The notes under the pieces are model-generated. The model saw nothing but the letters and a program-made list of their open reading frames with translations, searched no databases and was not told where the DNA came from. The position numbers and the translations under genes are program-made. Positions 3 to 25,440 of a stretch of 27,706 nt of DNA are shown one piece after another (the stretch's first letter is position 1; the number at the start of each line of letters is the position of its first letter). The DNA is from Gammaproteobacteria bacterium (GTDB lineage Bacteria > Pseudomonadota > Gammaproteobacteria > UBA6429 > Thiohalophilaceae). Location of the stretch: contig JANNJI010000175.1 of NCBI GenBank assembly GCA_031405795.1, positions 1 through 27,706 of the forward strand, given 5' to 3'.

Positions 3-482
3 GGTGGCGCCAATATGTATCTTGATCACGAAATTCTGTATATCTACTTGAGAGATGCTAATCCCGACTATATCTCTGCCTTGCAGCGTCCGGACGTTTT
101 GACCATCCCTGCCAATATTGAAGAAGGGGATGAAATCCGCGCAGAACAGATCGGACCGGTATTTTCCACCGACCGGCAGGGAAATTTGCATATGCGTTAC
201 TCCGCACGCACGCGGAATATTCACTGGCGTGATGATACGGTCACCGCCGAGGCGGTTGCCACGATTCAAGCACTGTTAAACAGTGATTTACCGTATATCA
301 TGCGCTATCGGCTCGCGGCGAATCAGGGGATTATCTGTAACAATGTCTTGCACAACCGCACGGCGTTTACGGATGGGGGGCTGCAGCAAACCAAGCGGTT
401 ATTATATCGCGCCCGTTATTTTGATCGGGTGAGTAACACGGATATGCCAAATGAACAAAAGGGGATATTATGCTCTGGTTGA
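3..482 (+). CDS. TauD/TfdA-family Fe(II)/2-oxoglutarate dioxygenase-like protein, 5' partial
   Basis: Frame is open from the window edge (GGAN precedes MYLD), so the true start is probably upstream. C-terminal HMRYSAR and NQGIICNNVLHNRTAF match the TauD/CAS-like distal-His segment. Confidence 0.7.
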   Translation, partial: GGANMYLDHEILYIYLRDANPDYISALQRPDVLTIPANIEEGDEIRAEQIGPVFSTDRQGNLHMRYSARTRNIHWRDDTVTAEAVATIQALLNSDLPYIMRYRLAANQGIICNNVLHNRTAFTDGGLQQTKRLLYRARYFDRVSNTDMPNEQKGILCSG

Positions 483-664
483 GTGAATTGTTAATTCAGG
501 AACATACCTTCACCTCGTTTGAAGAATTGAAAAAACAGGTGCAGCATCGCGGCGCACAAGGAGAAATGTTTTTTCGCATGGATGTGAAGCCACCGTTTCC
601 TGATACACCAGGCAATTGGGAAGATCAACTCGAAGCTGCATTTACCAGCGGGCAACAACGATAG
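470..664 (+). CDS. Small conserved hypothetical protein (64 aa)
   Basis: Overlaps the tauD-like stop and ends 12 nt before cas6, an operon-like spacing. Sequence LWLSELL...FFRMDVKPPFPDTPGNWEDQLEAAF resembles small proteins I recall from sulfur-oxidiser clusters. Confidence 0.7.
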   Translation: MLWLSELLIQEHTFTSFEELKKQVQHRGAQGEMFFRMDVKPPFPDTPGNWEDQLEAAFTSGQQR

Positions 665-676
665 TGGAGTGTAAAC

Positions 677-1366
677 GTGTATTGGAGTGAATCCCCCTCA
701 GGAACAGATCAGTTTATTGTGCCTGATGATATTGTCGATATCGTCTATAAACTGGACTGCAAATCTTTACCGTTGGATCATGCCTGGTCTTTATCACAAG
801 CACTGCAACAAGCTTTACCCTGGCTTGCCGAGGATGCAGACGCCGGAGTACATTTAATCCATGTGGCGGAATCAGGCAACGGCTGGTATCGCCCGGATGA
901 TCCGGAAAATGATACATTGTGTTTATCGAAACGTACGCGCATGACCTTGCGCATATCCAAACATCGCATTGACGACGCGCATCGATTGACGAGTAAAACC
1001 CTGGATGTCGCGGGTAGCCCTCTGACGGTGAAGGAGGGGTCAATTAAATTGCTGAGTACCTTGCCTACTTTGTTTGCCCGTTATGTTATTTGTGATGCCA
1101 CAGTGGATGAGGATGCTTTTTTGCATAGTCAGGTGGCTGCACTGCGTGGTATGGGTGTCCCTGTGACAAAGGTGTTGGCGGGAAAACAAAATACCTTGCG
1201 CCTGCCAGAAGGGCCAATTGCCACCCGCAGCATCATGATCGCGGACTTAATCCCTGAACTGTCGGTGCGGTTACAACAACAAGGATTGGGGGCGGGGCGC
1301 AAATACGGTTGTGGGTTATTTGTACCGCAGAAGGGCATAAAACCGGTCGCCGGTGAAAACGACTAG
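677..1366 (+). CDS. cas6: Cas6 family RAMP endoribonuclease (type I-MYXAN Cas6/Cmx6-like), orphan
   Basis: GTG start. N-terminal LPLDHAWSL, GVHLIH, LSKRTRMTLR and C-terminal Gly-rich loop QQGLGAGRKYGCGLFVPQK typical of Cas6. Confidence 0.85.
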   Translation: MYWSESPSGTDQFIVPDDIVDIVYKLDCKSLPLDHAWSLSQALQQALPWLAEDADAGVHLIHVAESGNGWYRPDDPENDTLCLSKRTRMTLRISKHRIDDAHRLTSKTLDVAGSPLTVKEGSIKLLSTLPTLFARYVICDATVDEDAFLHSQVAALRGMGVPVTKVLAGKQNTLRLPEGPIATRSIMIADLIPELSVRLQQQGLGAGRKYGCGLFVPQKGIKPVAGEND

Positions 1367-1495
1367 CAATATTATGGGACATGTCTCTTATTGCCAGTTG
1401 ATTCTCGAGCAAAAATCCAGATAATAAGCACCTTCAAATTTTGATTTTATGAGTAATAGAGTTTATCCATTCAAACTTTAAGAGAGGACAGTCCG

Positions 1496-1834
1496 ATGGC
1501 AATTCAATTCAATGGTAAATCCATCGAAACAACGGCAAATGGTTATCTGGTAAATGCAGAAGACTGGAGCAAGGAATTATCCCAACTGCTTGCCAATGAA
1601 GAGGGTATTGGTGAATTGACCCAACGTCATTGGGATCTGATCGAATATCTGCGTGACGAATACTATAATAACGGTCAGAACCAGCCGAATGAGCGCACCA
1701 TACTCAAAGCCATGACCGAGAAATGGGGCAAAGCCACGTCAAAAGACATGTATGACTTGTTTCCGCTCATGCCCTCCAAGCAAGGCGGAAAAGTAGCGGG
1801 TTTACCGGAGAGTCGTCGCAAGGGTGGGTATTGA
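1496..1834 (+). CDS. DsrC/TusE/DsvC-family protein lacking both C-terminal cysteines
   Basis: GYLVNAEDWS, LTQRHWDLIEYLR, LFP...KVAGLP are DsrC-fold signatures. The protein ends RRKGGY and has no Cys. RBS GAGAGGA upstream. Confidence 0.9.
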   Translation: MAIQFNGKSIETTANGYLVNAEDWSKELSQLLANEEGIGELTQRHWDLIEYLRDEYYNNGQNQPNERTILKAMTEKWGKATSKDMYDLFPLMPSKQGGKVAGLPESRRKGGY

Positions 1835-1975
1835 TTTCCAGCGCCCTGCTATCCAAATTGGATATAGTGGGGGCTAAAGCGCCGGTGCTATATTTCCTAA
1901 CCCAGATGCAGGTCTTCGGTTTTGTCGAAGATTGAAAGTGTATTTACTTTACAGTGCGTTAATGCGAGGTAAGTT

Positions 1976-2182
1976 ATGAGTGACAAGCAAGCAAACATCA
2001 AAAAAATGCTTGAAATGCAAAAGATGTTCATGAATCTGGAGCATGAGAGCGGTGTGGATTCTGAAACCTACTATGCCGCACCAGCAGGGCATGCATTACA
2101 CAACTACCGTCATGAATATCAGCAGTTGGCGATGGAAGTGTGCGATTTGGCACATGCTGAGAAAAAATCGCATCGCGATTAA
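1976..2182 (+). CDS. Small hypothetical protein (68 aa)
   Basis: RBS GAGG upstream, predicted helical composition, followed by a strong terminator. Confidence 0.7.
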   Translation: MSDKQANIKKMLEMQKMFMNLEHESGVDSETYYAAPAGHALHNYRHEYQQLAMEVCDLAHAEKKSHRD

Positions 2183-2196
2183 TCGCAAAGTCCCAA

Positions 2197-2238
2197 CAGA
2201 AATAAAAAAGCCGCATTACTGCGGCTTTTTTATTTCTG
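2197..2238. terminator. Bidirectional intrinsic terminator
   Basis: Perfect 19-bp inverted repeat CAGAAATAAAAAAGCCGCA-TTAC-TGCGGCTTTTTTATTTCTG with A/T tracts on both sides, between convergent genes. Confidence 0.9.
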
Positions 2239-2254: not shown

Positions 2255-2929
2255 TCAGATATCAGCCCACATACGGACTAAATTGACGTAACTGCGATCC
2301 AATTGCTGGGTGTTTTCATTCTCCGGTGCAGTTTTCAACAATGCTTCTCTGACACTGTTAAGCCCGTAGAGCAATTCACGTTTAGCGGGGTCGCGCACTA
2401 AACTTTGCACCCAAGTCACGGCGACCAGACGCTCACCTTGTGTCACCGGATTAACGTGATGGAGGCAGGAGGAAGGATAGAGAATCGCATGACCGGCGGC
2501 GCATTTGATTTGTTGCTCACCATAACTGGTGCGGATAACCAGCTCACCGCCGTGATAATTTGCCGGGGAATTTAAAAATACCGTGACCGAGACATCCGAG
2601 CGATAACGCTGACCTTGCGGACCCATGATCGGATCATCAATGTGATCGCCGTAAGATTTACCCAGTCCATAACGGGCATAAAACGGCACCGCGACACGGT
2701 GTGGCAAGGCGGCATTTTGAAAGTGAGGGTGTTGCACTAAACTACCCATAACGAGGTGGTTAAGGCGGTTTAATTGCGCGGCAGCCGGGCTTACCTCTTC
2801 ATTATTTTTCACCTGCTGGGCAACCTGACCTGCGGAGAGTTTGCCATCCACAAACGGCGCGCCCGCCAACAACGTATGGATTTCAGCTAATTGGCCAGCA
2901 TTGAGCACGGCGGGTATTTCCACAAGCAT
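2255..2929 (-). CDS. ybiX: PKHD-type Fe(II)/2OG hydroxylase (YbiX/PiuC family)
   Basis: FVDGKLSAG, VKNNEE, YGDHIDD, RSDVSVTVFL, YHGGELVI, LYPSSCLHHVNPVTQGER, YVNLVRMWA. Confidence 0.9.
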   Translation of the reverse strand: MLVEIPAVLNAGQLAEIHTLLAGAPFVDGKLSAGQVAQQVKNNEEVSPAAAQLNRLNHLVMGSLVQHPHFQNAALPHRVAVPFYARYGLGKSYGDHIDDPIMGPQGQRYRSDVSVTVFLNSPANYHGGELVIRTSYGEQQIKCAAGHAILYPSSCLHHVNPVTQGERLVAVTWVQSLVRDPAKRELLYGLNSVREALLKTAPENENTQQLDRSYVNLVRMWADI

Positions 2930-2993: not shown

Positions 2994-3317
2994 ATGAAAC
3001 TAAATGTACAAATTGACGAGCGCATGTATCAGATCGAGGTTCCTGAGGATATGGCATACACCGCGAAGGACATTTTTGCCAAAATGGACCGTGAAATGGA
3101 TAACGGTTGGCAGATGAGCCGGGAATGGGTTCAGGATCTCGATGCGACACAACGCTGTCAGGTGGCCGCCAATCGATTATTAACGGCAGTAGAAAATAAT
3201 CATCAACCGAGCATGATGTTGATGTCGGGCTATATCCTCTACAAAATGCCATCCATTCAAAAGATTTTTATCGACACACAGGGTGATATGACGCAGACAC
3301 AATTGTATACCCGTTAA
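2994..3317 (+). CDS. Conserved hypothetical protein (107 aa)
   Basis: RBS AGGA upstream and natural-looking sequence (KMDREMDNGWQMSREWV, QRCQVAANRLLTA). Divergent from ybiX. Confidence 0.75.
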   Translation: MKLNVQIDERMYQIEVPEDMAYTAKDIFAKMDREMDNGWQMSREWVQDLDATQRCQVAANRLLTAVENNHQPSMMLMSGYILYKMPSIQKIFIDTQGDMTQTQLYTR

Positions 3318-4596: not shown

Positions 4597-5085
4597 TTAA
4601 AGTGACTTTTCCATTTTAACATGCCCGATACTGCCAAATAATGTCGGTGCCAGACCGGTGTTCTGATACTGCCGAGATTGATAAAAAGCTTGGGCATTGT
4701 CACGCGCATTGAGCAGGATGGTGGTTACCTGCCATTCGTGCGCCTTGGCTTCAAGGGTCTGTAATATTGCCGAACCAACCCCGCAGCGTTGGAATGGCGG
4801 TATCACCGCCATGTACCGAATGTGTGCTTGTTGCTGGGTGAGGCGATGTATTCGGCCTATGCCGATCAAATCATTATTATCGAGCAAGGCCATTACATGA
4901 TAAGCGTGAGCTTCATGTTCATCTTGTTCATTACCACGTGGTTGTTGCCACGGTGCACGCAGAATCTGCCAGCGCAGATCAAAACAGGCCTCTAATTCCT
5001 GAGTTGTAGCAGGTGACTTAATAATAAAGGTTGGATTGGCCATGAGTCCGGGGAGGGGCGATGAGCCGTCGTTCACGACTGGCAT
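4597..5085 (-). CDS. GNAT family N-acetyltransferase
   Basis: LRWQILRAP, RYMAV, motif A QRCGVGSAIL, LNARDNAQAFY. Start overlaps the upstream stop (TGATG). An alternative start lies at 5043. Confidence 0.9.
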   Translation of the reverse strand: MPVVNDGSSPLPGLMANPTFIIKSPATTQELEACFDLRWQILRAPWQQPRGNEQDEHEAHAYHVMALLDNNDLIGIGRIHRLTQQQAHIRYMAVIPPFQRCGVGSAILQTLEAKAHEWQVTTILLNARDNAQAFYQSRQYQNTGLAPTLFGSIGHVKMEKSL

Positions 5086-5687
5086 CAGGCAAATACCACC
5101 CAGGTTGTGGCGATGTATTTTACTCCTTGTTGCAGTGTCACGCCGCGATGTTCATGAGTCCAAAATGGCGGGAATAAAATGAGTTTGCCTTGCTCGGGTT
5201 TGATTTTTATATTTTGGTACAAAAATTCCGTTTCACCACCTGGTCCAGCAACATCATTCAAGTACCACAAGGCCACCAATTGTCGTTGACTGAATTCATG
5301 GCTGCCGCCATCAATATGCCAATGATAATGTTCACCAGGGTTAGTGCGTTGGATCGCATAACCCATGTCCTTAAACGGACCCTTGAAAAAATGATAGCGT
5401 TCGCGAAATTCAACGATGGCTTTGCCCAGTGACTGAAATAGCGCGCGATCCACGTCGTGCCAGTGCGGTTTGCCGCTGACAACTAAATCCGTGGATTTTT
5501 TAATACTCCGATCCTGTTCCGCCAATTGACCGATGCGACCTTCATACTGTTCATGTTGATGCTGTTCAAAACGCTGAATCATGTCAAGGCATTGTTCAGT
5601 AGAAAGGGCGTAATTTTTTTCAAATATGAAAGCATCAGGTTTGACTTCGACGATGGTCGATAGTGGGGTAAGGGTTTTTATGTGCAT
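5085..5687 (-). CDS. 2OG-Fe(II) oxygenase (prolyl-4-hydroxylase-like)
   Basis: HxD (WHIDG), LWYLNDV..GGETEF, GKLILFPPFWTHEHRG, KYIATTW. Confidence 0.85.
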   Translation of the reverse strand: MHIKTLTPLSTIVEVKPDAFIFEKNYALSTEQCLDMIQRFEQHQHEQYEGRIGQLAEQDRSIKKSTDLVVSGKPHWHDVDRALFQSLGKAIVEFRERYHFFKGPFKDMGYAIQRTNPGEHYHWHIDGGSHEFSQRQLVALWYLNDVAGPGGETEFLYQNIKIKPEQGKLILFPPFWTHEHRGVTLQQGVKYIATTWVVFA

Positions 5688-5700
5688 TTTATTCGGTTTT

Positions 5701-6744
5701 TCAGAGGCGATTGTTGTCGATCAAATCCATCAGCGGTTGGTTAAAGTCAGCAGGATGCTTTTCGATGAATGACATGATGCGCTGACATAACGTGCTCCAA
5801 TGCACCACACTTTCCTTACTAACACGATATAGTTCTGTACTATCACCGGTACGGTGCCAGTCTTCGTAGACGGCAATAATACCAGGAAATAAATATTTTC
5901 GCATATTGGTTAGATTGGCGAAGAAAAAATGCAAAGCCGCCGCATTTTCGTGTTCAAGTATTTGCGGCAATGTCGATAGGGTATCCGCATAGAGATCACG
6001 TACAGCACGCAACATGATTTCTAATTTTGAGTGTGGTACTTGTAGTAGCAATTTCTCCCAGTCTTCGCCAAGTTGATAGTGCGCCATGACCTCGCCGATT
6101 TCGTGCCAAATGACGGATTGCAATTCGTTCTGAGTCATTGTATCTAATGCCAGATCCAAGTCGCACTCAAAATCATAATATGCCAAGGCGCGGCCCAAGG
6201 CATTGTCTGGCTTATTCCATAACCACTGTTCGTATTTTTCCCATAACATGCGCCGTAACGCATCACGGCGAATATAAATATTTTTCCCCTGACTCATGGC
6301 CGGTGGTGAGGTCAAGTCGCAGGCATATTCGTCGCCGGAAACATAGATGTCGAATTCCTGATGGACCTCATGTTTTTCCAGGACGCCAAGAAAAAAATGG
6401 GGCTTCACGTTGTATCCAAATCCACCACTATATATAAGATGCTGAGGGGCTAAGGCAGTGTTGATGGCAGCTGAATCAAATGGGTCGTACGTTGTGCCAT
6501 TAATGGCAAGGGGTTTAAAGGATTCATCTTGCAAGGTTTCCCACAGTTGCTCACGTGAACGCAGCCAATTGCCGACACTATCGTTGGGTAGCGGATCACC
6601 GAAGTTATAGCCGTGTTCCCAGCGGTAATATTCACGCATCTTGAGCAGATAAATGCACATCGTGTAGTTCCCGGCGGCAGTGGCGTCGGCAATGTGGCAA
6701 TTTTTCTGTACTGTTTGCTTAATTTGCTGTAAATCCAGACTCAT
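5701..6744 (-). CDS. Conserved hypothetical protein, Sfum_1244-like
   Basis: N-terminal VQKNCHIADA...YTMCIYLLKMREYYRWE and WHEIGE...RAVRDLYAD resemble this family as I recall it. Family name not verified by search. Confidence 0.6.
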   Translation of the reverse strand: MSLDLQQIKQTVQKNCHIADATAAGNYTMCIYLLKMREYYRWEHGYNFGDPLPNDSVGNWLRSREQLWETLQDESFKPLAINGTTYDPFDSAAINTALAPQHLIYSGGFGYNVKPHFFLGVLEKHEVHQEFDIYVSGDEYACDLTSPPAMSQGKNIYIRRDALRRMLWEKYEQWLWNKPDNALGRALAYYDFECDLDLALDTMTQNELQSVIWHEIGEVMAHYQLGEDWEKLLLQVPHSKLEIMLRAVRDLYADTLSTLPQILEHENAAALHFFFANLTNMRKYLFPGIIAVYEDWHRTGDSTELYRVSKESVVHWSTLCQRIMSFIEKHPADFNQPLMDLIDNNRL

Positions 6745-7739: not shown

Positions 7740-9128
7740 ATGGAACACAGGCTATTAAATCTGATACCTTTTACTTCGCAAATTAACAGTGATGCGGTGT
7801 ACAGAATGATATCAGACATCGGTTACCGGGTGAAAATCGTCAAAAGTGATAACTGGCTATCTTCAATAGCGCTTCAACCAACAAACCTTTCAGTATTATT
7901 ACTTGATAAAGATATATTTCTTCAAGACAAATTACGCACTGCATTGACAAAGGGAAACCGATCTCCAACCTTTGCCATCATAGGCGATCAGAAAATTAAT
8001 GAAAATGTAAAATTGTTGGAATTGTGTGATGATTTCACGACCTGGCCTTGTTACGCGCAGGAATTAACATGCCGCCTTGAACGGCTTGCCAGCCTGGAGG
8101 GGAAATCCTGGAACTCGCCTGCTGATTGTGGGAAAGTACAAGAGGAATTTATTTCACTTAATTTGCTGGGCCAATCGAATAAGTTTGTTCAGTCTCTCAA
8201 TCTTATAAAAAAAGTTGCCCACTGCGATGTGTCGGTGTTCATTGAAGGCGAAACGGGTACTGGTAAAGAAGTTACTGCGCGCGCAATACACTACTTAAGT
8301 GCCAGGCAAAACCATCCTTTCGTGCCGGTCAACTGTGGTGCAATACCGGATAATCTGCTTGAAAATGAATTGTTTGGCCATGAGAAAGGCGCATTTACGG
8401 ATGCAAAAGAGTACCAGCCGGGCCTTATTGCTCAGGCGGATGGCGGAACATTGTTTCTTGATGAAATCGATTCGATGTCACCCAAGGCCCAGGTTGCACT
8501 GTTACGTTTTCTGCAAGATCAGGAATACAGACCCTTGGGCGCTAAAAAATACAAGCAAGCGGATGTCAGAATTATTACGGCAACAAATTCCAATATTCGG
8601 ACGTTGGTTGAACAAGGCGCCTTCCGTGAAGATCTATATTTTCGTATTAATATTATGTCCATAACCTTACCACCGCTGCGTGAGCGAGGCGGTGATATCC
8701 GCATTCTGGCAGAGCATTTTCTGCAACTTTGTCGGGAACACTATCACCAACCTGATAAATTTTTACACAAGAATGCCCTTCGGTGGTTGGAAAATTATAG
8801 TTGGCCCGGAAACGTACGGGAATTGGAAAACACAATACACCGTATGTTTCTTCTCGCAGAGGGAGCCGCAATTCATACTATTCATACTGTAAATGTTGGA
8901 AACGGGCATACTGAGCGTCGAAAAAACCTTCCCGATCGAAGAAATAAATTGTTATTTACCATGGGTTTTAATGAGGCAAAAAACAATATGATTAAGGAAT
9001 TTGAGAAAAATTATCTCTCTGGGTTGATGGCAGAATCACTTGGTAATGTCAGTAAAGCGGCAAAGATCGCAGGTAAAGAGCGGCGCGCATTAGGTAAACT
9101 TCTGAAAAAACATCAAATTAAATCGTGA
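7740..9128 (+). CDS. Sigma-54-dependent transcriptional activator (bEBP): degenerate receiver-like N-terminus, AAA+ domain, Fis-type HTH
   Basis: Walker A GETGTGKE, ENELFGHEKGAFTDA, Walker B LFLDEI, FREDLYFRIN, WPGNVRELEN, C-terminal GNVSKAAKIAGKERRALGKLLKKH. Confidence 0.95.
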   Translation: MEHRLLNLIPFTSQINSDAVYRMISDIGYRVKIVKSDNWLSSIALQPTNLSVLLLDKDIFLQDKLRTALTKGNRSPTFAIIGDQKINENVKLLELCDDFTTWPCYAQELTCRLERLASLEGKSWNSPADCGKVQEEFISLNLLGQSNKFVQSLNLIKKVAHCDVSVFIEGETGTGKEVTARAIHYLSARQNHPFVPVNCGAIPDNLLENELFGHEKGAFTDAKEYQPGLIAQADGGTLFLDEIDSMSPKAQVALLRFLQDQEYRPLGAKKYKQADVRIITATNSNIRTLVEQGAFREDLYFRINIMSITLPPLRERGGDIRILAEHFLQLCREHYHQPDKFLHKNALRWLENYSWPGNVRELENTIHRMFLLAEGAAIHTIHTVNVGNGHTERRKNLPDRRNKLLFTMGFNEAKNNMIKEFEKNYLSGLMAESLGNVSKAAKIAGKERRALGKLLKKHQIKS

Positions 9129-10962: not shown

Positions 10963-11532
10963 ATGTTTAATGATTTTGATGCCATATTAAAAAATTTGAT
11001 AGTAAGCGGACTTTCCAATGGTCTGAACGAGAAAAATATTCTATTTGTAACACCTGATGTTGGTTTTAAACCGGAACTTCCTGCAATTAACTGTTTTCTT
11101 TATGACATTCGTGAAAACAGTGAGTTACGTAGTAATGAATGGTTTGTTGACAAAAATGCAGACGGCACAGTGTCAAAAAAACGTGCGCCATTATGGTTGG
11201 ACTGTAGCTATATTATTACGACTTGGGCGACCACTATCGAGAGTGAACATCGTTTGCTTGGGGAGGTGTTCGCAACGTTATTATCCTATGAGGTTAAAGC
11301 AGGTGATTCTTCGAACCATAGCGTTAACAATAGATCAGGAAAAACGTTTTTAAAATTTAATAAAAACATGGCAAATAATATTTATGATATGTGGAATTCG
11401 CTTGGTATTAAACCTCGATCAATGCTTAGTTATACCTTGACTGCCAGTATTGAAAAGCAAGCGCCAGAAAATATAATGCTAGTTAAAGAAAAAGTAATCA
11501 ATATGAATGTTATCAAAGAAATGGCTTTATGA
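10963..11532 (+). CDS. Pvc16/Afp16 (DUF4255) tail terminator/cap protein
   Basis: LPAINCFLYDIRENSELR, PLWLDCSYIITTW, EHRLLGEV, KPRSMLSYTLT. Confidence 0.9.
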   Translation: MFNDFDAILKNLIVSGLSNGLNEKNILFVTPDVGFKPELPAINCFLYDIRENSELRSNEWFVDKNADGTVSKKRAPLWLDCSYIITTWATTIESEHRLLGEVFATLLSYEVKAGDSSNHSVNNRSGKTFLKFNKNMANNIYDMWNSLGIKPRSMLSYTLTASIEKQAPENIMLVKEKVINMNVIKEMAL

Positions 11533-11534
11533 TG

Positions 11535-11565
11535 ACCGATCTTATGTAAGATACGGTATTTTTTT
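11535..11565 (+). terminator. Intrinsic terminator-like hairpin inside the operon
   Basis: ACCG-ATCTT-ATGT-AAGAT-A-CGGT followed by ATTTTTTT directly after the pvc16 stop. Confidence 0.45.
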
Positions 11566-11621
11566 GCATAGTTATATATTTAATCACAGCAGTGCCAGGA
11601 TATTATTAAGGAGAAAATGTT

Positions 11622-12944
11622 ATGGCAAATTATCTATCGCCGGGAGTTTATGTTCATGAGGTTCCTTCAGGCACGGCACCAATTAACGGTGTTGGAACAT
11701 CTACCGCTGGATTTATTGGTATCTTCGCTGATGTCATCCAAATTCCTTTTGAAAACCCTGACTATGATCCATCCAAGAAGGCTACTGAATCGGAAGCTGA
11801 ACCAGTTGATATGGCTGAGCCTGCGCCGGGCGCCGCTGCAAGAAGACGTGCGGCCAGAACAACAAGTGGTCAAAACAGTCCTTTTATAACGAAAGAGTTT
11901 AAACCAATCGATGCTGGTGAAGTTAAATTAGTCACCAATAAAAGCGAATTCAGAAAATTTTTTGGTGATTTTTCAACTGATGACGGCCATGGAAAATTGC
12001 TGCATGCGGTTAATGGATTTTTTGATAATGGTGGAACACGCTGTTTTGTTGTGCGCGTAAAAGAAAAATCCAAGATACTTACTACTGCGCTGGAAAAATT
12101 CGAATCCATCGATGAAATTTCTATCGTCGCGGCGCCCGGTATCGCCGATGCAGACGTACGTAGCGCACTTGTTACGCATTGTGAAAAAATGGGTGACAGA
12201 TTCGCAATATTGGATTGTGCGGAAGAAACCGAGACTGATGGAACCTTTGATCGGGATAAACTCAGTGAACCGCAGGATTCAAACTATGCTGCAGTGTATA
12301 TTCCCTGGTTTCGTGTTTTTGATCCGGCATTAAAAATCACCAATCCAGACGGAAATGGCAAACGTTATATTGCGCCGAGTGGTCACATTGCTGGTATTTA
12401 TGCACGTGTTGATGCTGAACGTGGGGTGCATAAGGCGCCAGCAAACGTAGTAATCAGAGGGGTGGCGAGCCCGGATGATCTTAAGTATCGCCTGAGCAAG
12501 GCACAGCAAGATGGATTAAATCCTGTTGGGATTAACTGTATACGCCACATAAATGGGAATGTGAAGGTGTGGGGCGCGCGAACCATCGGTGGCGCCAGAA
12601 ATGATGAATGGACATATGTATCAGTGCGACGACTGTTTCTTTATCTACGTGAATCTATTGATGAGGGCACCCAGTGGGTCGTATTTGAACCAAACACGCC
12701 TAACCTTTGGGCAAAAATAACGCGAAATATTACCGCCTATTTGACCAACGTATGGCGCGATGGTGCATTGTTTGGCAACAGCCCGCAAGAGGCTTTTTAT
12801 GTCAAATGTGATGCAGAAACAAATCCACCGGAAATACGTGATTTGGGACAGGTTGTAACTGAAATTGGTGTTGCTGTTGCCAGACCGGCAGAGTTTGTTG
12901 TATTCCGTATCAGTCAATGGCAAGCAGAAGCAACAGCCGAATAA
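11622..12944 (+). CDS. Contractile tail sheath protein 1
   Basis: YLSPGVYVHE, FFDNGGTRC, AAVYIPW, PSGHIAGIYARVDAERGVHKAPAN, VWGART, YVSVRRLF, RPAEFVVFRI. Confidence 0.96.
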   Translation: MANYLSPGVYVHEVPSGTAPINGVGTSTAGFIGIFADVIQIPFENPDYDPSKKATESEAEPVDMAEPAPGAAARRRAARTTSGQNSPFITKEFKPIDAGEVKLVTNKSEFRKFFGDFSTDDGHGKLLHAVNGFFDNGGTRCFVVRVKEKSKILTTALEKFESIDEISIVAAPGIADADVRSALVTHCEKMGDRFAILDCAEETETDGTFDRDKLSEPQDSNYAAVYIPWFRVFDPALKITNPDGNGKRYIAPSGHIAGIYARVDAERGVHKAPANVVIRGVASPDDLKYRLSKAQQDGLNPVGINCIRHINGNVKVWGARTIGGARNDEWTYVSVRRLFLYLRESIDEGTQWVVFEPNTPNLWAKITRNITAYLTNVWRDGALFGNSPQEAFYVKCDAETNPPEIRDLGQVVTEIGVAVARPAEFVVFRISQWQAEATAE

Positions 12945-12982
12945 TATAAATCCATTATCGGAAAAAACAGACCAGGAAAAAA

Positions 12983-14122
12983 ATGTCACAATATTATTCG
13001 CCCGGTGTTTACATACGAGAAATCGTTCCGCCACCCGCGCCTGGGTTGCAGACGGGCGTACCTGTTTTTATTGGCTACACACGATGCTCGCCAAATAAGA
13101 CAGATGATCAATCATCCTATGTGCTTACCAGCTGGCAGGATTTTCTGCAAAAGTTTGGAGAGCCGGTAACGACAGGTTTCCTGGGTTATGTGGTACAGGG
13201 ATTTTTCGAAAATGGCGGTAAGATTTGTTACGTTTATCCACTCGAGGGTGATATTGAAATTGCATTACGACGGTGTTTGGAATTTTTGGAGTCATGGGAA
13301 GAATGCGATCTTGTGTGTGCGCCAGATGTGATGCTAAATCCAGAAAATGCTATCGAGTTACAAAGGGCATTACTGGACCATTGTGAAAAACAAGGTAATC
13401 GATTTGCCGTACTGGATTCGCTTCACGCAAGTGATGAACATACCGTGGTACGGCAGCGGCAAGCACTGCGCTCGAATAACGGCGCACTTTATTATCCCTG
13501 GGTGGTTGTGAGTTCTGATACTGAGCCATGCGGTAAGGTTGTCCCGCCGTGTGGGCATGTCGCCGGGGTTTATGCAAGCACTGATAGGCAGATTGGCGTA
13601 CACAAAGCTCCGGCAAATGTGCAGCTTAAAGGTATTGTCGGTATTGAAAGTGATATTAATGTTGAGATACAAGATCGTTTAAATCCACACGGGATTAACT
13701 GTTTACGTATTTTTCCAGGCAGAGGTATTCGTATTTGGGGCGCAAGAACATTGAGTGCTACACCAACCTGGCGTTATATCAATGTGCGGCGGCTTTTAAT
13801 GAGTGTGGGATGCTGGTGCGATAAAAATCTATCCGATATTGTATTTGAAATTAATCATCCAAGATTATGGGCTCGCCTTGAACGTGCATTAACGGCCTAT
13901 TTAACAGAATTATTCATGCGTGGAGCATTGCAGGGTAAGTCAGCGCGTGAAGCGTTCTATGTTAAATGTGATGCCGACACAAACACTGTCAATATGATAA
14001 ATGCAGGAACAATTATAACTGAAATCGGGCTGGCACCATCAGTGCCAAGTGAATTTGTTGTAATGCACATTGTACATAGCAACAACGGTGTTCATTTATT
14101 AGATCGTATCTGGAATACATAA
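12983..14122 (+). CDS. Contractile tail sheath protein 2
   Basis: YYSPGVYIRE, FFENGGKIC, GALYYPW, PPCGHVAGVYA, GVHKAPAN, IWGARTL, YINVRRL, PSEFVV. Confidence 0.95.
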   Translation: MSQYYSPGVYIREIVPPPAPGLQTGVPVFIGYTRCSPNKTDDQSSYVLTSWQDFLQKFGEPVTTGFLGYVVQGFFENGGKICYVYPLEGDIEIALRRCLEFLESWEECDLVCAPDVMLNPENAIELQRALLDHCEKQGNRFAVLDSLHASDEHTVVRQRQALRSNNGALYYPWVVVSSDTEPCGKVVPPCGHVAGVYASTDRQIGVHKAPANVQLKGIVGIESDINVEIQDRLNPHGINCLRIFPGRGIRIWGARTLSATPTWRYINVRRLLMSVGCWCDKNLSDIVFEINHPRLWARLERALTAYLTELFMRGALQGKSAREAFYVKCDADTNTVNMINAGTIITEIGLAPSVPSEFVVMHIVHSNNGVHLLDRIWNT

Positions 14123-14141
14123 ATTATCAAGGAGAAAAGAC

Positions 14142-14597
14142 ATGGCAACAGGAGAACGAAGAGATCCTTACCGGCAATATAACTTCATTGTAGAAATGGA
14201 TGGTATAACCCGCGCTGGGTTTAAGGAATGTTTTGGTTTGGATTCAAGTCAGGACATTGTTAATTATCGCGAAGGCGGTGAAAAATTGTCGGTTCGGCAA
14301 TTGCCAGGATTGGTCAGATATTCAAGGATTGTTCTTATGCGGGGGGTTACCGATGATCCTGAGCTATGGAATTGGCGTAAAGATGCGCAAGATGGAAAGA
14401 TTAAACGCAAAAATGGCTCTATCGTTTTATTGGACGACACAGGCGCAGAAAAAGGTCGTTGGAACTTTACTGATGCATGGCCGGTGAAGTGGGTTGGCCC
14501 GCACTTTAATGCCACAGGTAGCGAGGTTGCGATTGAAACGCTTGAACTGACACATGAAGGCCTCGATAAAATAATGCAGGCAAAAGCGGGTAAGTAA
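14142..14597 (+). CDS. Tail tube protein 1 (T4 gp19-like, Afp1/5)
   Basis: DPYRQYNFIVE, YREGG, LPGL, IVLMRGVT, WNFTDAWPVKWVGP, AIETLELTHEG. Confidence 0.95.
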   Translation: MATGERRDPYRQYNFIVEMDGITRAGFKECFGLDSSQDIVNYREGGEKLSVRQLPGLVRYSRIVLMRGVTDDPELWNWRKDAQDGKIKRKNGSIVLLDDTGAEKGRWNFTDAWPVKWVGPHFNATGSEVAIETLELTHEGLDKIMQAKAGK

Positions 14598-14630
14598 TAA
14601 AGTGGAAGTCAACATAGGTATGGCGATCAG

Positions 14631-15107
14631 ATGCAAATAAATGTCAGAAAAGATCCCTATTTAGCCTTTAATTTTCTGGTTGAAATTGATGGCCTGCAAG
14701 TGGGTGGGTTCAATGAAGTCGAAGGTTTGCATCTTAAGGTTGAAACCATCGCTTATTGCGAAGGCGGTGGCGGTGGGACTGTGTATCATTTGGCAGGCGA
14801 GCCTCGTTATGGTTGTGTCACCTTAAGTCGCGGTATGACAACGTCAATGGATCTGTGGGATTGGGTATTAAAAACTGTCGAAGGTGAGATTGTTCCGCGT
14901 CAGGTATCGATTGTTTTACGGAATATAGATCCGGAGTTGGAAGAAACACGTTGGAACCTCGCAAATGCATGGCCGCGCGAATGGAAGGCAGGCTGTTTTA
15001 ATGCGTTGAAAAGTGCTTTTTCAATAGAAAGCTTGTCATTGGTATTTGGCAGTATAAAACGAGAAATAGGCAATGTTAAACAAGTTAAAGAAAATATTAC
15101 TGCTTAA
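14631..15107 (+). CDS. Tail tube protein 2 (gp19-like)
   Basis: DPYLAFNFLVEIDG, FNEVEGL, VTLSRGMT, WNLANAWPREWKA, IESLSL. Confidence 0.92.
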   Translation: MQINVRKDPYLAFNFLVEIDGLQVGGFNEVEGLHLKVETIAYCEGGGGGTVYHLAGEPRYGCVTLSRGMTTSMDLWDWVLKTVEGEIVPRQVSIVLRNIDPELEETRWNLANAWPREWKAGCFNALKSAFSIESLSLVFGSIKREIGNVKQVKENITA

Positions 15108-16131
15108 GCTCGAGCGTATACTGCGGAATTGGGCAGATGCAATCCTGAAACTAGTGACAATTCCACCGTCAGTGGACGAAATCAGCAATGATTCAGTAAA
15201 CGGCGAAGCCGTGTTGGATATGCCTGGTGAACAAGAGCCGCGCAATTCAAAAGAAACGAATTATGTAGCAGCGGAAAATATAAATAAAGAATTAATGTCG
15301 CGCCCAATAGTCACTTTTTCTAATACAGTTGACCTGGAAATAATGCCACAATCCGCAGCGGATGTTAACGAAAGTAGTGTAACTCCCACCAGTCTGCAGT
15401 CACCAGTTAATGATAGTGGTGCTGCTACACGTGGGGTTGTTGCAACGGAAAAAGAGAGGGACATAAAACCATTTTTAAATGAAACGGTACGGGAAATGGT
15501 CGGCGCGGGGTATGGCCAAGTTAAAACACAAAAAGATAAGTATAAAATCGAGAACTATATTACAGACGGTGGCATTCAATACCAACCAGCTGCATATAAC
15601 AAACACGAAATTCAGCAACACTATAGCCTTTTAGCAACAGGCCATTCCGATGATGATGGCTATAAAGCCGCATCATTAACGTTAAGCATTGTAAAACGTG
15701 AAAAATACAATGCATTTTATGCTGAATTTTACAACGAAAAAAACATATTCGATAAATCAGACGTCTGTATTGATGAGCCGCAAGAAAAAATAAATTTTAC
15801 ACGAAATATTGCAGAACATGTTCAGCATATTCCAGCATCAATCGTAAAGGGTAATTTCTATATTGCTGAAAAATCAATATCGGAGTCGGGCATAAAGACT
15901 GATCCAGGAGCAAGGCATTGGCCGGAACTTGGCGAATCCGCGCCAATAATTCATATTAATGATGGACATAACTCAAGCGGTAATGTGCAACATTGGCCGG
16001 AATTTCCCTTGATGGATCAAGTAATTGATACAGCGTATGTACATGAAATGTCGCATGCCGATTATTACCGTGAGCTTATGCATCGTCGTGAGCTGGATAT
16101 GGAACAACAAGGTCAAGTATGGAACGCGTAG
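15073..16131 (+). CDS. Hypothetical CIS-associated protein, mostly low-complexity
   Basis: Fills the gap between tube 2 and Afp7 and overlaps both. Amphipathic N-terminal helix and two HWPE motifs near the C-terminus. Confidence 0.7.
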   Translation: MLNKLKKILLLKLERILRNWADAILKLVTIPPSVDEISNDSVNGEAVLDMPGEQEPRNSKETNYVAAENINKELMSRPIVTFSNTVDLEIMPQSAADVNESSVTPTSLQSPVNDSGAATRGVVATEKERDIKPFLNETVREMVGAGYGQVKTQKDKYKIENYITDGGIQYQPAAYNKHEIQQHYSLLATGHSDDDGYKAASLTLSIVKREKYNAFYAEFYNEKNIFDKSDVCIDEPQEKINFTRNIAEHVQHIPASIVKGNFYIAEKSISESGIKTDPGARHWPELGESAPIIHINDGHNSSGNVQHWPEFPLMDQVIDTAYVHEMSHADYYRELMHRRELDMEQQGQVWNA

Positions 16132-16844
16132 CATTTCTGATTGAGAGCAGCGGCGAGCGCTTGGGATGCATGTTAAATCCCGGAAGCCTGGTTTTAAGAC
16201 GCCGTGCAGGGATAAAGTCACGTGAGTCAGTTGGCGGATTTATTACGGGCACTGAATTAGCCGATGAGCCATTGCAGTTAACTAATGGTGGCTGCACGGA
16301 GTTGACACTTGATCTGTTATTTGACGTGTCGTTACCAGGCTCATCGATCACGAGCAATGATGTCAGGGACTTAACCCGGCCGCTCTGGAATTTAGCGGAA
16401 AACACCAAGCAAGTCGACATGAACAAAAAACTCCCGTTGTGCTGTTTCCTGTGGGGTAAACAATGGAATATTCCAGGGGTCATCACAGCCATTGCCGAGC
16501 GGCTGGAGTTTTTTACACCGTCTGGTTTACCCAGGCGTTCCTGGTTGCGCCTGATATTAAGGCGTGTTGCCTCATCTGCGACACTGGCGCCAATGAATAA
16601 TATTGAAACTCAATTGCCTGATTTGGAACAAGCGGAATTCGATTTTCAAAATACGCTGATTGCCAGCGAAGAAAGTGATACTGAAGTTAAGATTACCGCG
16701 GTATCCGGTGAACGGTTGGATCAACTTGCCTATCGGTATTATGGTGATACACGATTCTGGCGGCATCTGGCCATATTTAATGATATTACCAATCCGTTGG
16801 ATTTAGCGGGTGGCGATTCAATCGAAGTACCGGCTTTAACATAA
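16119..16844 (+). CDS. Afp7/Pvc7-like tube initiator with C-terminal LysM domain
   Basis: MLNPGSL, TELTLDLLFD, FLWGKQW, ERLEFF..SGLPRR; LysM-like GERLDQLAYRYYGDTRFWRHLAIFNDITNPL. Confidence 0.88.
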   Translation: MERVAFLIESSGERLGCMLNPGSLVLRRRAGIKSRESVGGFITGTELADEPLQLTNGGCTELTLDLLFDVSLPGSSITSNDVRDLTRPLWNLAENTKQVDMNKKLPLCCFLWGKQWNIPGVITAIAERLEFFTPSGLPRRSWLRLILRRVASSATLAPMNNIETQLPDLEQAEFDFQNTLIASEESDTEVKITAVSGERLDQLAYRYYGDTRFWRHLAIFNDITNPLDLAGGDSIEVPALT

Positions 16845-16849
16845 GGATT

Positions 16850-18427
16850 GTGGTTATGGATATGTTAGTTTCGCTGCCGAAGTTAACCATCGAAATAAAT
16901 GGGACGGCTATGTCAGTTGCCGATGGGCGTGTGTTGTCGGGTTTACGGGTTCAACAGCGCCTTTCGTTGCCAACCTTGTGTGAAATGACTTTCATAGATC
17001 CAGATGGAACTATCGCAACGTCAAATCAATTAATAATAGGCGCAGAATTATATATTTCTATTGACAGCCAAAACACATCGCTGTTCCAAGGGCAAATTAC
17101 CGCGATAGAGTATGATTACGGCTCTTCAAATGATAGAACAGTTCGAATACGTGGTTATGATAATCTCCACCAACTTCGTAAACGTCAACCCGTGTGTGCA
17201 CATGTCGAAGTAACCCTTGTTGAATTGGCGCGGACATTTTCAGCGAGCCTAGGGATGTCAGTTGCAGCAACTGAAAGCGGGCCGGTCTGGAAAAAGCTTG
17301 TGCAGTTTCGCCAATCCGATCTGGAATTTATGACGGAACTTTCTGAGCGTTGCGGCTTGTACTTTACGCTACGAAATAATGTGTTGCAGTTTCTGACCTT
17401 AAAAGGGTTTGGCGAACCGGCTCTATTAGCACTGGGTGACTCGTTGCTTGAGGCGCGCGTTGTTGCAAATGGTGATCCTGCATGTCATTCCGTAACAACA
17501 ACAGGATGGGATCCTTGGTTAGCCGCAGAACACAGCGGTTATGCCAGTGTGGCGCGTGTTGGCCGTTCAGTAACTACCGAGATTCCAGCGGACAGCGTTG
17601 GTGGGACAGGTGAGCGGATACTGGTTGACGAAGTTGTTCAAAATGCCAGCCAGGCTGAGGTTATTGCCCAGGCCGAGCTTGATCGACGCGTGGCAGGAGC
17701 GGTGGTTTTTTTTGGCGTTGCTACCGGCAACGCGCAATTGCAGCCAGGTATACCGATCACTGTCAGTGGTATCGCAGATGCGATTAGTGGTAATTATGTA
17801 TTAACAGCGGTTACGCACACGATTGATCATAAACATGGGTTTTTGTCGATACTTGAAACCGCTCCGCCTCCGAACAGCAAAAAGAAACATAGCACGGCAA
17901 CTACCGTGGGTATTGTTACGCGGGTTGACGATCCGGAGGGCCTTGGTCGAATTCGTGTGAAGCTGCCAAATTACAATAATATCGAAACGGATTGGTTACA
18001 AATTGTGGCGCCGGGTGCAGGCAAAGATAAAGGTATTATTGCCTTAAACGACATTGGTGATCGGGTTTTACTTGTGTTTAATCACGGTGATCCTGCACAG
18101 GCTATTGTACTCGGTGGTCTTTATGGCTCTGTGTCACCACCCGATGCGGGTGTGGTCAATGGTGCAATTCGCCGTTATCTTTTTCAGACGCCTGGTGGGC
18201 AACGTATAAAACTGGATGATGAAAAAGATACGGTAGCCATTTCTAACGGCAAAGGCACAACAGTTAGCTTGTCGCCTGGCAGAGCAAAAATCACCAATAG
18301 CGATGGCAGTTATATCGAACTATCCCGTGAAAAACTCACCATCCATTCCAAAGTTAAGCTGGAGATCGAAGCGCCAGGACAGGCAATAGTCATGCGTGGC
18401 CAATCGATTGATTTTGCGAGGGCATGA
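16850..18427 (+). CDS. VgrG-like spike / baseplate hub (Afp8-like, gp27-gp5 fusion)
   Basis: LFQGQITAIE, QFRQSDLEF, YVLTAVTH, OB-fold GIVTRVDDPEGLGRIRVKLP, DIGDRVLLVF..GDPAQAIVLGGLY. Start may be the ATG at 16856 (better RBS spacing). Confidence 0.92.
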   Translation: MVMDMLVSLPKLTIEINGTAMSVADGRVLSGLRVQQRLSLPTLCEMTFIDPDGTIATSNQLIIGAELYISIDSQNTSLFQGQITAIEYDYGSSNDRTVRIRGYDNLHQLRKRQPVCAHVEVTLVELARTFSASLGMSVAATESGPVWKKLVQFRQSDLEFMTELSERCGLYFTLRNNVLQFLTLKGFGEPALLALGDSLLEARVVANGDPACHSVTTTGWDPWLAAEHSGYASVARVGRSVTTEIPADSVGGTGERILVDEVVQNASQAEVIAQAELDRRVAGAVVFFGVATGNAQLQPGIPITVSGIADAISGNYVLTAVTHTIDHKHGFLSILETAPPPNSKKKHSTATTVGIVTRVDDPEGLGRIRVKLPNYNNIETDWLQIVAPGAGKDKGIIALNDIGDRVLLVFNHGDPAQAIVLGGLYGSVSPPDAGVVNGAIRRYLFQTPGGQRIKLDDEKDTVAISNGKGTTVSLSPGRAKITNSDGSYIELSREKLTIHSKVKLEIEAPGQAIVMRGQSIDFARA

Positions 18428-18765: not shown

Positions 18766-18766
18766 T

Positions 18767-19183: not shown

Positions 19184-19193
19184 ACAGAATAAT

Positions 19194-22332: not shown

Positions 22333-22346
22333 CAAGGAGAAAATGT

Positions 22347-24734: not shown

Positions 24735-24831
24735 GCTGAATGTGAATAGTTAATACCAGCGCGGTGAATAAATATATGGAAACATGCAAACGGTAACACT
24801 AGAGTCATAAAACAAATAGTATGGAAACAGT

Positions 24832-25410: not shown

Positions 25411-25440
25411 TGTGTAACGAGATGCACACAGGGAAATGAC

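What the first reader, a model, noticed from the sequence alone, without database searches (positions are those of the whole stretch)
470..1834. Orphan Cas6 embedded in a sulfur-relay-type gene cluster
Seen: an intact-looking Cas6 (DH motif, Gly-rich loop) is tightly linked to a TauD-like gene and a 64-aa ORF and is followed by a DsrC-like gene. There is no CRISPR array or other cas gene in the 27.7 kb. Established: Cas6 proteins cleave RNA hairpins. Inference: a Cas6 repurposed for processing or regulating cellular RNA in sulfur metabolism. I recall this neighbourhood recurring in sulfur oxidisers, so it may have been noticed before, but I know of no demonstrated function.
Basis: partly seen in the sequence, partly recalled or inferred. 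Interest (0 to 1): 0.68.

Follow-up and report, generated by a model that had tools for sequence, protein, structure and literature searches.

The report
Domesticated Cas6 in sulfur-oxidation Dsr module
A real CRISPR-type Cas6 protein, with no role in CRISPR immunity, is a fixed part of a small gene set kept next to the sulfur-oxidising dsrAB genes in hundreds of bacteria; what it does there is still untested.

Summary
Window 677-1366 encodes a Cas6/Cmx6-family protein (PF09559, E 3e-57). Its AlphaFold model (pLDDT 92) matches the type I-B Cas6 of PDB 8FCJ/8FCU (TM 0.77-0.82). It lies in the order dsrQ (TauD-like, cut by the contig start), a 64-aa gene, cas6-like, a cysteine-free DsrC paralogue and a 68-aa gene.

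The set lies back-to-back with dsrAB, as shown by joining own-genome contigs and by relatives. Of 401 genomes of the class, 118 carry both PF09559 and dsrA, 7 only the former and 6 only dsrA. Two of the 7 are true I-MYXAN CRISPR operons; three others have the cluster or dsrA cut at a contig end.

The gene is in 24/24 genomes of the family, while Cas1 is in 10/24. Two 1.1-Mb genomes without Cas1 also keep it. The own genome's type I-C fragments do not explain it.

Function is unknown. The conserved His, core arginines and glycine loop favour retained RNA binding. Lost positive charge, half the CRISPR-type basic positions lost, and no conserved hairpin argue against it. Palindromic boxes nearby behave as DNA operators, not RNA hairpins.

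This scan has reported the same module at least ten times on other genomes. The held literature names only dsrQ.

The parts
3..482 (+). dsrQ: TauD-family Fe(II)/2-oxoglutarate dioxygenase, C-terminal 159 aa. The gene is cut by the contig start.
   Evidence: PF02668 at E 1.4e-7. The full-length homologue in G002 scores E 1.8e-17. The N-terminal part (residues 26-127) lies on own-genome contig C130, running off its start and divergent from dsrA.
470..664 (+). 64-aa acidic protein with a conserved DTPxNWED motif. It is the tightest partner of the Cas6-like gene.
   Evidence: No Pfam or NCBIfam hit. It is 59-75% identical across the family and present in 74 of 80 loci. It is the only neighbour kept in L095 and L097. 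Alignment A6.
677..1366 (+). Cas6-like protein of the Cmx6 family, Dsr-linked clade, 229 aa.
   Evidence: PF09559 at E 3.4e-57 and TIGR02807 above cut-off. PDB 8fcj_B by sequence at E 1e-8. AF2 model with pLDDT 91.8. Foldseek hits 8fcu_B and 8fcj_B at E 1e-16 with TM 0.77-0.82, followed by other Cas6 structures.
1398..1425 (+). Sigma-70-type promoter-like site (TTGATT, 16 nt, GATAAT) in front of the DsrC-like gene.
   Evidence: Consensus scan. The same hexamers recur in the equivalent spacers of L011-L016, L018 and L019. That this is a working promoter is inferred.
1496..1834 (+). Cysteine-free DsrC paralogue (RspA type), ending in AGLPESRRKGGY.
   Evidence: PF04358 at E 6.4e-31 and TIGR03342. 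It is 44% identical to the true DsrC of G002, with CysB and CysA both replaced by Gly (A3). Present in 76 of 80 loci.
1849..1894 (+). Conserved box (CTATCC-N5-GGATATAG, 1849-1867) followed by an extended -10 element (TGCTATATT, 1886-1894) in front of the 68-aa gene.
   Evidence: Conserved across 17 relatives. The -10 varies as TAnnnT, which fits a promoter and not a hairpin. A related box lies upstream of dsrA.
1976..2182 (+). 68-aa protein of unknown function.
   Evidence: No family hit. Present in 62 of 80 loci.
2203..2234 (.). Bidirectional intrinsic-terminator-like hairpin between the 68-aa gene and the convergent hydroxylase gene.
   Evidence: Read directly from the sequence: a GCCGCA/TGCGGC stem flanked by an A-run and a T-run.
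2255..2929 (-). PKHD-type (YbiX-like) Fe(II)/2-oxoglutarate hydroxylase, a conserved neighbour.
   Evidence: NF003974 at E 1.7e-72, plus PF13640 and PF18331. Present in 58 of 80 loci.
2994..3317 (+). 107-aa protein of unknown function, a conserved neighbour.
   Evidence: No family hit. Present in 50 of 80 loci.

Best explanation
SHOWN. The gene at 677-1366 encodes a structurally intact Cas6 of the Cmx6 (type I-B/I-MYXAN) lineage. It has left CRISPR immunity and become a fixed member of an accessory gene set of the oxidative Dsr sulfur-oxidation system. The set is dsrQ, a 64-aa protein, Cas6-like, a cysteine-free DsrC, a 68-aa protein, usually a PKHD hydroxylase and a 107-aa protein, and in some lineages an extra 238-aa helical protein. 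It lies back-to-back with dsrAB.

INFERRED, about 0.45. The Cas6-like protein still binds, and perhaps cuts, a specific cellular RNA. It would act as a low-abundance post-transcriptional factor for Dsr-related transcripts, probably together with the 64-aa protein that always accompanies it.

INFERRED. The cysteine-free DsrC and the 68-aa protein are made from their own promoters. These promoters share operator-like boxes with the dsrA promoter, so the whole set would be one regulon.

The confidence given is for the whole statement. The shown part alone is about 0.95.
For: Family and fold.

Synteny: the same gene order holds in 19 of 19 loci fetched from relatives (18 in family f1, one in f3) and in most of 80 named loci from Thioalkalivibrio, Thiogranum, Thiohalobacter, Sulfuricaulis, Thiothrix and Thiomargarita. 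In the own genome, contig C130 carries the dsrQ N-terminus divergent from dsrA-dsrB. Contigs C232, C653 and C41 carry dsrEFHCMKL.

Co-occurrence in 401 genomes of the class: 118 have both, 7 only PF09559, 6 only dsrA, 270 neither. The two genes co-occur even where they are far apart on one chromosome (G422, G076, G340, G174).

Independence from CRISPR: Cas6-like is in 24/24 genomes of the family and Cas1 in 10/24. G210 and G369 (1.1 Mb, 99% complete) keep dsrQ, the 64-aa gene, Cas6-like, the DsrC-like gene and the 68-aa gene, but have no Cas1.

Distinct clade: it is 22-28% identical to true CRISPR-linked Cmx6, and a branch with 100/100 support separates the two groups.

For RNA binding: H35, R88, R92, R135, R208 and the G-rich loop are conserved in both clades.

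For separate transcription and low Cas6-like expression: promoter-like sites are conserved in both spacers. In four marine metatranscriptomes, contigs cover dsrA and the DsrC-like/68-aa genes of G210 but hardly cover dsrQ or cas6-like.
Against: No RNA target was found. There is no Rfam family in the window.

The only conserved palindromes near the genes lie upstream of promoters. They show no strand-specific wobble (17 G-U against 17 A-C) and no covariation.

The Dsr-linked proteins are slightly acidic: median pI 6.35 and net charge -3 (n=135), with the window protein at 5.86 and -4. Three CRISPR-linked proteins have pI 9.3-9.6 and net charge +6 to +9.

Of 13 columns that are basic in CRISPR-linked Cmx6, six are lost, including one in the G-rich loop (position 207). 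New conserved motifs appear instead (SGNGWxRP, N-terminal MxWxE).

Nothing else in the gene set is RNA-related. The metatranscriptome data are assembled contigs, so gaps prove nothing.
Confidence: 0.5

Rival explanations
1. The Cas6 fold is used purely as a protein-binding scaffold or chaperone and no longer handles RNA. It might hold the 64-aa protein, the C-terminal arm of the cysteine-free DsrC, or DsrAB/DsrQ. Its role would be in assembly, regulation or oxygen-dependent modification of Dsr proteins.
For: Charge shifts from basic to acidic, and six of 13 CRISPR-type basic positions are lost. New clade-specific conserved motifs appear. No conserved RNA hairpin was found. All other members are proteins of redox or sulfur chemistry, including two 2-oxoglutarate oxygenases. 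Earlier scan notes mention TusA or rhodanese genes inside the set in other lineages (not checked here).
Against: H35, R88, R92, R135, R208 and the glycine loop are shared with RNA-binding Cmx6 and are nearly invariant over 135 diverse sequences. If they were only structural, some drift would be expected. Apparent low transcript level relative to the DsrC-like gene fits a catalytic or regulatory factor better than a stoichiometric partner.
Confidence: 0.35
2. The protein is a DNA-binding regulator that recognises the palindromic boxes upstream of dsrA, the DsrC-like gene and the 68-aa gene.
For: Related boxes sit at three promoters of the set, and the factor that binds them is unidentified.
Against: By established knowledge, Cas6 folds bind RNA hairpins, not duplex DNA. 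The protein is acidic. The cysteine-free DsrC, whose family carries a helix-turn-helix-like motif (own knowledge), is a more natural candidate.
Confidence: 0.05
3. It is an ordinary CRISPR Cas6 that serves, in trans, a CRISPR-Cas system elsewhere in the genome, for instance the type I-C system whose fragments lie on contigs C315 and C404.
For: The own genome has Cas3c, Cas4c and the start of Cas1c on short contigs. Arrays may be unassembled in this 881-contig genome.
Against: Type I-C uses Cas5d and has no Cas6 (established knowledge). In the family, 14 of 24 genomes have the gene but no Cas1. The 1.1-Mb genomes G210 and G369 have it without Cas1. True I-MYXAN operons in the same class (L139, L140) carry a different Cas6 that is only 27-28% identical. 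The gene tracks dsrA, not cas genes.
Confidence: 0.02

Closest known systems
Cas6/Cmx6 of type I-B / I-MYXAN CRISPR-Cas (PF09559, TIGR02807; solved as chain B of the type I-B CAST Cascade, PDB 8FCJ/8FCU)
   Same: Same Pfam and NCBIfam family, above the curated cut-offs. Same two-lobed Cas6 fold (TM 0.77-0.82). Same DH motif, core arginines and glycine-rich loop.
   Different: Only 22-28% identical to CRISPR-linked members, and a separate, fully supported clade. No adjacent cas3, cmx8, cas7 or cas5 genes and no array. Slightly acidic instead of basic. Clade-specific N-terminal MxWxE and SGNGWxRP motifs. Co-inherited with dsrAB rather than with cas genes.
dsrQ, the tauD-like gene divergent from dsrA (Lenk et al. 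2012, as described in PMC7596348 and PMC9371685)
   Same: The first gene of this set is that gene. It is TauD-family and lies back-to-back with dsrA.
   Different: The held literature names only dsrQ and speculates on sulfonate breakdown. The genes that follow it (the 64-aa gene, Cas6-like, the Cys-free DsrC, the 68-aa gene) are not described in any held paper I could find.
[quoted passage not shown]
   Same: The gene at 1496-1834 is a DsrC-family protein lacking both C-terminal cysteines.
   Different: It keeps a conserved C-terminal arm (AGLPESRRKGGY in place of AGLPKPTGCV) and is fixed next to a Cas6-like gene beside dsrAB.
Myxococcus xanthus dev operon, where I-MYXAN cas genes act in development (own knowledge, not checked here)
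   Same: Cas proteins of the same subtype with a role outside defence.
   Different: There the whole effector operon and an array remain. Here a single Cas6 gene has been taken into an energy-metabolism gene set.

Membership tests
Cas6/Cmx6 protein family (PF09559, TIGR02807) | Sequence match above the curated cut-offs | tested here: met
   PF09559 scores 193.9 bits against a cut-off of 26.7. TIGR02807 scores 121.6 bits against 98.85.
Cas6/Cmx6 protein family (PF09559, TIGR02807) | Cas6 fold (two ferredoxin-like lobes) with a glycine-rich loop | tested here: met
   The model has pLDDT 91.8. The best PDB matches are all Cas6, led by 8fcu_B at TM 0.77/0.82. The G-loop is conserved.
Cas6/Cmx6 protein family (PF09559, TIGR02807) | Binds and cleaves a repeat-derived RNA hairpin | not testable with these tools
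   The candidate catalytic His35 and the core Arg residues are kept. However, positive charge is lost and no target hairpin was found.
CRISPR-Cas system (type I-B / I-MYXAN) | Cas6 encoded with cas3, cmx8/cas8, cas7, cas5 and an array | tested here: not met
   No cas gene or array in the window. True operons of that kind in L042, L139 and L140 carry a different Cas6 clade.
CRISPR-Cas system (type I-B / I-MYXAN) | Presence tracks the adaptation genes (Cas1) | tested here: not met
   Cas6-like is in 24/24 genomes of the family and Cas1 in 10/24. G210 and G369 have it without Cas1.
Dsr accessory gene set (dsrQ-linked) | Located next to, and divergent from, dsrAB | tested here: met
   Own genome by joining C130 and C175. 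G002 locus L030. 64 of 80 loci have dsrA within 7 kb.
Dsr accessory gene set (dsrQ-linked) | Genome-level co-occurrence with dsrA | tested here: met
   118 genomes have both, 7 only PF09559, 6 only dsrA and 270 neither, out of 401. Five of the seven PF09559-only cases were resolved as CRISPR-type or cut at a contig end; G161 and G281 were not examined.
DsrC / TusE (sulfur-relay members) | Conserved C-terminal cysteine(s): CysA, and for DsrC also CysB | tested here: not met
   The protein has no cysteine. Both positions are Gly in the alignment with the true DsrC. It is RspA-type.

The most novel reading that the evidence does not exclude
The Cas6-like protein brings RNA to the TauD-type dioxygenase DsrQ. 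Together they would remove sulfonate (bisulfite) adducts from RNA bases, or otherwise modify RNA, protecting the cell from the sulfite that DsrAB produces. This would be an AlkB-like RNA repair system built around a domesticated Cas6. It would explain three things together: a sulfonate-cleaving type of oxygenase, an RNA-binding fold, and the fixed position beside a sulfite-generating enzyme. Nothing here tests it.
Probability: 0.04. Interest if true: 0.9.

Novelty: new variant of a known kind. Interest (0 to 1): 0.68.

Why it matters
Cas proteins taken over for non-defence tasks are rare. Here a Cas6 has become a near-universal companion of a central enzyme of the global sulfur cycle, and it is kept even in 1.1-Mb genomes. 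If it still handles RNA, it would reveal a hidden post-transcriptional or RNA-directed layer in dissimilatory sulfur oxidation. If it does not, it shows how an RNA-binding fold is converted into a protein module.

There is also a practical point. Annotation pipelines label these genes 'type I-MYXAN CRISPR-associated Cas6/Cmx6'. In the 401 genomes surveyed, 123 of 125 PF09559 hits appear to be of the Dsr-linked kind, so CRISPR surveys that count this family are inflated in sulfur oxidisers.

Tried and rejected
1. RNA-hairpin reading of the palindromic boxes. The boxes are TATCCC-N4-GGGATA and ACCCTACC-N3-GGGGTG upstream of dsrA, with related boxes in both spacers of the window. They lie upstream of the conserved TAGACT -10 element. 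G-U and A-C pairs are equal (17 against 17), and the variable positions vary independently. I rejected the hairpin reading in favour of a DNA operator. The strict motif is also not enriched genome-wide: 6 hits against about 14 in shuffles.

2. Single-sequence AlphaFold gave a useless model with pLDDT 48.

3. Rosetta-stone fusions. The N-terminal extension of P0162 is not the 64-aa protein. The long open frames seen come from an extra upstream 238-aa gene, not from a fusion.

4. RNA-seq of the window's own organism: no RNA run on record holds this DNA.

5. Rfam scan of the window: nothing.

6. Lenk et al. 2012 could not be read.

7. Test of an oxygen link through phototrophs. Only one of ten phototrophs in the sample has dsrA, and it also has the gene, so the test was uninformative.

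8. My k-mer array scan of the genome gave two hits. Both are short tandem repeats with no spacer structure, not CRISPR arrays.

9. The Cas5d search was uninformative, because the control genomes were silent too.

Full report
**What is there**

The window is a whole contig of an 881-contig genome that is 94% complete. Five plus-strand genes lie at its left end:
- the C-terminal 159 aa of a TauD-family dioxygenase (3-482)
- a 64-aa ORF (470-664)
- a 229-aa ORF (677-1366)
- a 112-aa ORF (1496-1834)
- a 68-aa ORF (1976-2182)

A bidirectional terminator-like hairpin follows at about 2203-2234. Next come a convergent PKHD-type hydroxylase gene (2255-2929, minus strand) and a 107-aa ORF (2994-3317).

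The 229-aa protein matches PF09559 (Cas6, E 3.4e-57) and TIGR02807 (Cas6/Cmx6, above cut-off). The 112-aa protein matches PF04358 and TIGR03342 (the DsrC/TusE family).

By sequence, the nearest solved structure is the Cas6 of the type I-B CAST Cascade, 8fcj_B (E 1e-8). An AlphaFold model built on 135 homologues has pLDDT 91.8. Its best PDB matches are that same Cas6 (E 1e-16, TM 0.77-0.82), followed by several dozen other Cas6 and Cas6e chains.

**Where it belongs**

The gene order TauD, 64-aa, Cas6, DsrC-like, 68-aa, with the hydroxylase opposite, is the same in all 19 loci fetched from relatives. Eighteen of these are in the same family and one is in another family of the class. The Cas6-like gene itself is in 24 of 24 genomes of that family.

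In a same-genus genome (G002, L030) the TauD gene is full-length. It lies back-to-back with dsrA-dsrB-dsrEFH-dsrC-dsrMK-dsrL.

The own genome shows the same thing in pieces. Contig C130 begins inside the N-terminal part of the TauD gene, on the minus strand, and continues into dsrA and dsrB. Contigs C232, C653 and C41 carry dsrEFH, dsrCMK and dsrL. The TauD-like gene is therefore dsrQ, the tauD-like gene divergent from dsrA that Lenk et al. (2012) named. PMC7596348 and PMC9371685 report this name.

A scan of one genome per species found at least 582 loci. I examined the 80 best, which include Thioalkalivibrio denitrificans, Thiogranum, Thiohalobacter, Sulfuricaulis, Thiothrix, Thiomargarita and Marithrix. 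The number of these 80 loci containing each gene was:
- DsrC-like gene: 76
- 64-aa gene: 74
- dsrQ: 70
- dsrA within 7 kb: 64
- 68-aa gene: 62
- PKHD hydroxylase: 58
- 107-aa gene: 50

The 64-aa gene is the tightest partner. In two loci (L095, L097) it is the only neighbour kept. In 14 loci a further 238-aa helical protein sits between the 64-aa gene and Cas6. The own genome has a homologue of it on contig C376.

**Co-occurrence with dsrA**

I surveyed 401 genomes drawn evenly from the class. PF09559 is found in 125 and dsrA (E at most 1e-80) in 124. Comparing the two tables gives 118 with both, 7 with PF09559 only, 6 with dsrA only and 270 with neither. These genomes are related, so this is not a formal test, but they span well over a hundred families.

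Of the 7 PF09559-only genomes:
- G045 and G330 carry true I-MYXAN operons (cas6-cas3-cmx8-cas7-cas5-cas4/cas1). One of them also has a 20-repeat array. Their Cas6 is only 27-28% identical to the window's.
- G316 has a dsrA fragment at the end of the contig.
- G190 and G155 have the gene set cut at a contig end.
- G161 and G281 were not examined; both genomes are incomplete.

Of the 6 dsrA-only genomes, two have dsrQ. One good-quality genome (G315) and two incomplete ones lack dsrQ as well.

In most genomes the two genes lie 2-4 kb apart and divergent. In a few closed genomes they are far apart, yet both are present.

**Not CRISPR**

Cas1 is found in 10 of the 24 family genomes, against 24 of 24 for the Cas6-like gene. 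Six essentially complete genomes have the gene and no Cas1. Two 1.1-Mb genomes (32-33% GC, 99% complete) keep dsrQ, the 64-aa gene, Cas6-like, the DsrC-like gene and the 68-aa gene beside dsrAB. They have no Cas1.

The own genome does hold cas fragments of type I-C: Cas3c on C315, and Cas4c plus the start of Cas1c on C404. It does not refute the reading. By established knowledge, type I-C matures its crRNA with Cas5d and has no Cas6, and the gene's distribution follows dsrA rather than cas genes.

In a maximum-likelihood tree, a branch with 100/100 support and length 1.4 separates 46 sequences of the window's type from six other sequences. Those six are five CRISPR-linked Cmx6 sequences (three cyanobacterial, two gammaproteobacterial) and one Gloeobacter relative that has no cas neighbours. 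The root is unknown. The contexts of the database proteins that I labelled 'Dsr' were not checked one by one.

**The DsrC-like gene**

It is 44% identical to the true DsrC. Both redox cysteines are replaced by glycine, and the arm reads AGLPESRRKGGY instead of AGLPKPTGCV. [quoted passage not shown] It cannot carry sulfur.

**Transcription units and boxes**

The spacer before the DsrC-like gene holds a conserved TTGATT-16-GATAAT site.

The spacer before the 68-aa gene holds a conserved TGCTATATT. Across relatives its variants keep the TAnnnT pattern of a -10 hexamer. It is preceded by a conserved CCAAA-NN-GGATATAG box.

The dsrA-dsrQ spacer of 39 loci contains, in order, a conserved TAGACT (a -10 element for dsrA), a box ACCCTACC-N3-GGGGTG next to its -35 position, and a box TATCCC-N4-GGGATA further upstream.

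These palindromes resemble small hairpins of the kind Cas6 binds. For comparison, the repeat of a true I-MYXAN array has a 5-6-bp stem with a tetraloop. I therefore tested the hairpin reading. Over 234 stem cells there are 181 Watson-Crick pairs, 17 G-U, 17 A-C and 19 others. The two variable positions vary independently on the two arms. Equal G-U and A-C counts, no covariation and a position upstream of promoters together point to DNA operators of a shared regulator, not to RNA.

I infer that the set is one regulon with at least three transcription units.

Four marine metatranscriptomes hold contigs of the 1.1-Mb relative that cover dsrA and the DsrC-like/68-aa genes, but hardly cover dsrQ or cas6-like. 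This fits separate promoters and a low level of the Cas6-like mRNA. These are assembled contigs, however, so gaps prove nothing.

**What the Cas6-like protein may do**

In favour of retained RNA binding: H35 of the DH motif, R88, R92, R135, R208 and the glycine loop are conserved in both clades. They are nearly invariant among 135 diverse sequences of the Dsr type.

Against it:
- The clade is slightly acidic. Median pI is 6.35 and net charge -3, and the window protein has pI 5.86 and charge -4. Three CRISPR-linked proteins have pI 9.3-9.6 and charge +6 to +9.
- Six of 13 columns that are basic in CRISPR-linked proteins are lost, including one in the loop.
- New conserved arginines and lysines appear, along with the motifs SGNGWxRP and MxWxE.
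- No known RNA family and no conserved hairpin were found.

I put RNA binding or processing at about 0.45, a pure protein-scaffold role at about 0.35, DNA binding at 0.05 and CRISPR service at 0.02.

**Literature and earlier notes**

In the held library I found no paper linking Cas6 with dsr genes. Only dsrQ is named, with a speculative role in sulfonate breakdown.

This scan has reported the same gene set on at least ten other genomes, always with function unknown. My results agree with those notes and add the following:
- the class-wide contingency table
- the contrast with Cas1
- the streamlined genomes
- the charge and basic-residue analysis
- the promoter/operator dissection, with rejection of the hairpin reading
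- the metatranscriptome pattern

**Verdict**

This is a new functional variant of the Cas6 family, of clear interest to both CRISPR and sulfur-cycle specialists, but without a demonstrated mechanism.

Noticed in passing
window 10963-27706: Most of the right half of the window is a contractile injection system or phage-tail-like cluster. It has two sheath proteins, a VgrG/gpV-type spike, a baseplate-J protein and a PASTA-repeat protein. G+C dips to 0.35-0.38 at 10-12 kb.
   Followed up: partly
window 5085-6744 (minus strand) and 2255-2929: A third 2-oxoglutarate/Fe(II) oxygenase (5085-5687) lies next to a DUF6866 protein (5701-6744). Within 6 kb there are therefore three oxygen-dependent oxygenases: dsrQ, the PKHD hydroxylase and this one. 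A GNAT acetyltransferase (4597-5085) and a sigma-54 activator (7740-9128) follow.
   Followed up: no
own genome contigs C315 (L005:679-1716) and C404 (L002:387-1245): Fragments of a type I-C CRISPR-Cas system on short contigs: Cas3c, Cas4c and the start of Cas1c. A DpdJ-like helicase lies on C400.
   Followed up: partly
L046:4184-4547 and 38 other loci; window 1849-1867: Conserved operator-like palindromes (ACCCTACC-N3-GGGGTG and TATCCC-N4-GGGATA) lie upstream of a conserved TAGACT -10 of dsrA. Related boxes sit at the promoters of the Cys-free DsrC gene and the 68-aa gene. Together they suggest an undescribed dsr regulon with an unidentified regulator, for which the Cys-free DsrC is a candidate.
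   Followed up: partly
L127:1636-2352; own genome C376:1806-2440: An extra conserved 238-aa helical protein (no Pfam family, weak TPR-like lead) sits between the 64-aa gene and Cas6 in 14 of 80 loci. In the window's genome it is encoded elsewhere.
   Followed up: partly
L045:2974-3765 (Gloeobacter morelensis plasmid pGMOR1): A Cmx6-type Cas6 with a long C-terminal tail sits among a PAPS-reductase-family gene, a cupin gene and hypothetical genes, with no cas neighbours. It may be a second, independent non-CRISPR use of this Cas6 family.
   Followed up: no
class-wide survey: Of 125 genomes with a PF09559 hit, only 2 carried a confirmed CRISPR operon (cluster context was checked in only a subset). 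The NCBI product name 'type I-MYXAN CRISPR-associated protein Cas6/Cmx6' is therefore misleading for most gammaproteobacterial members.
   Followed up: yes
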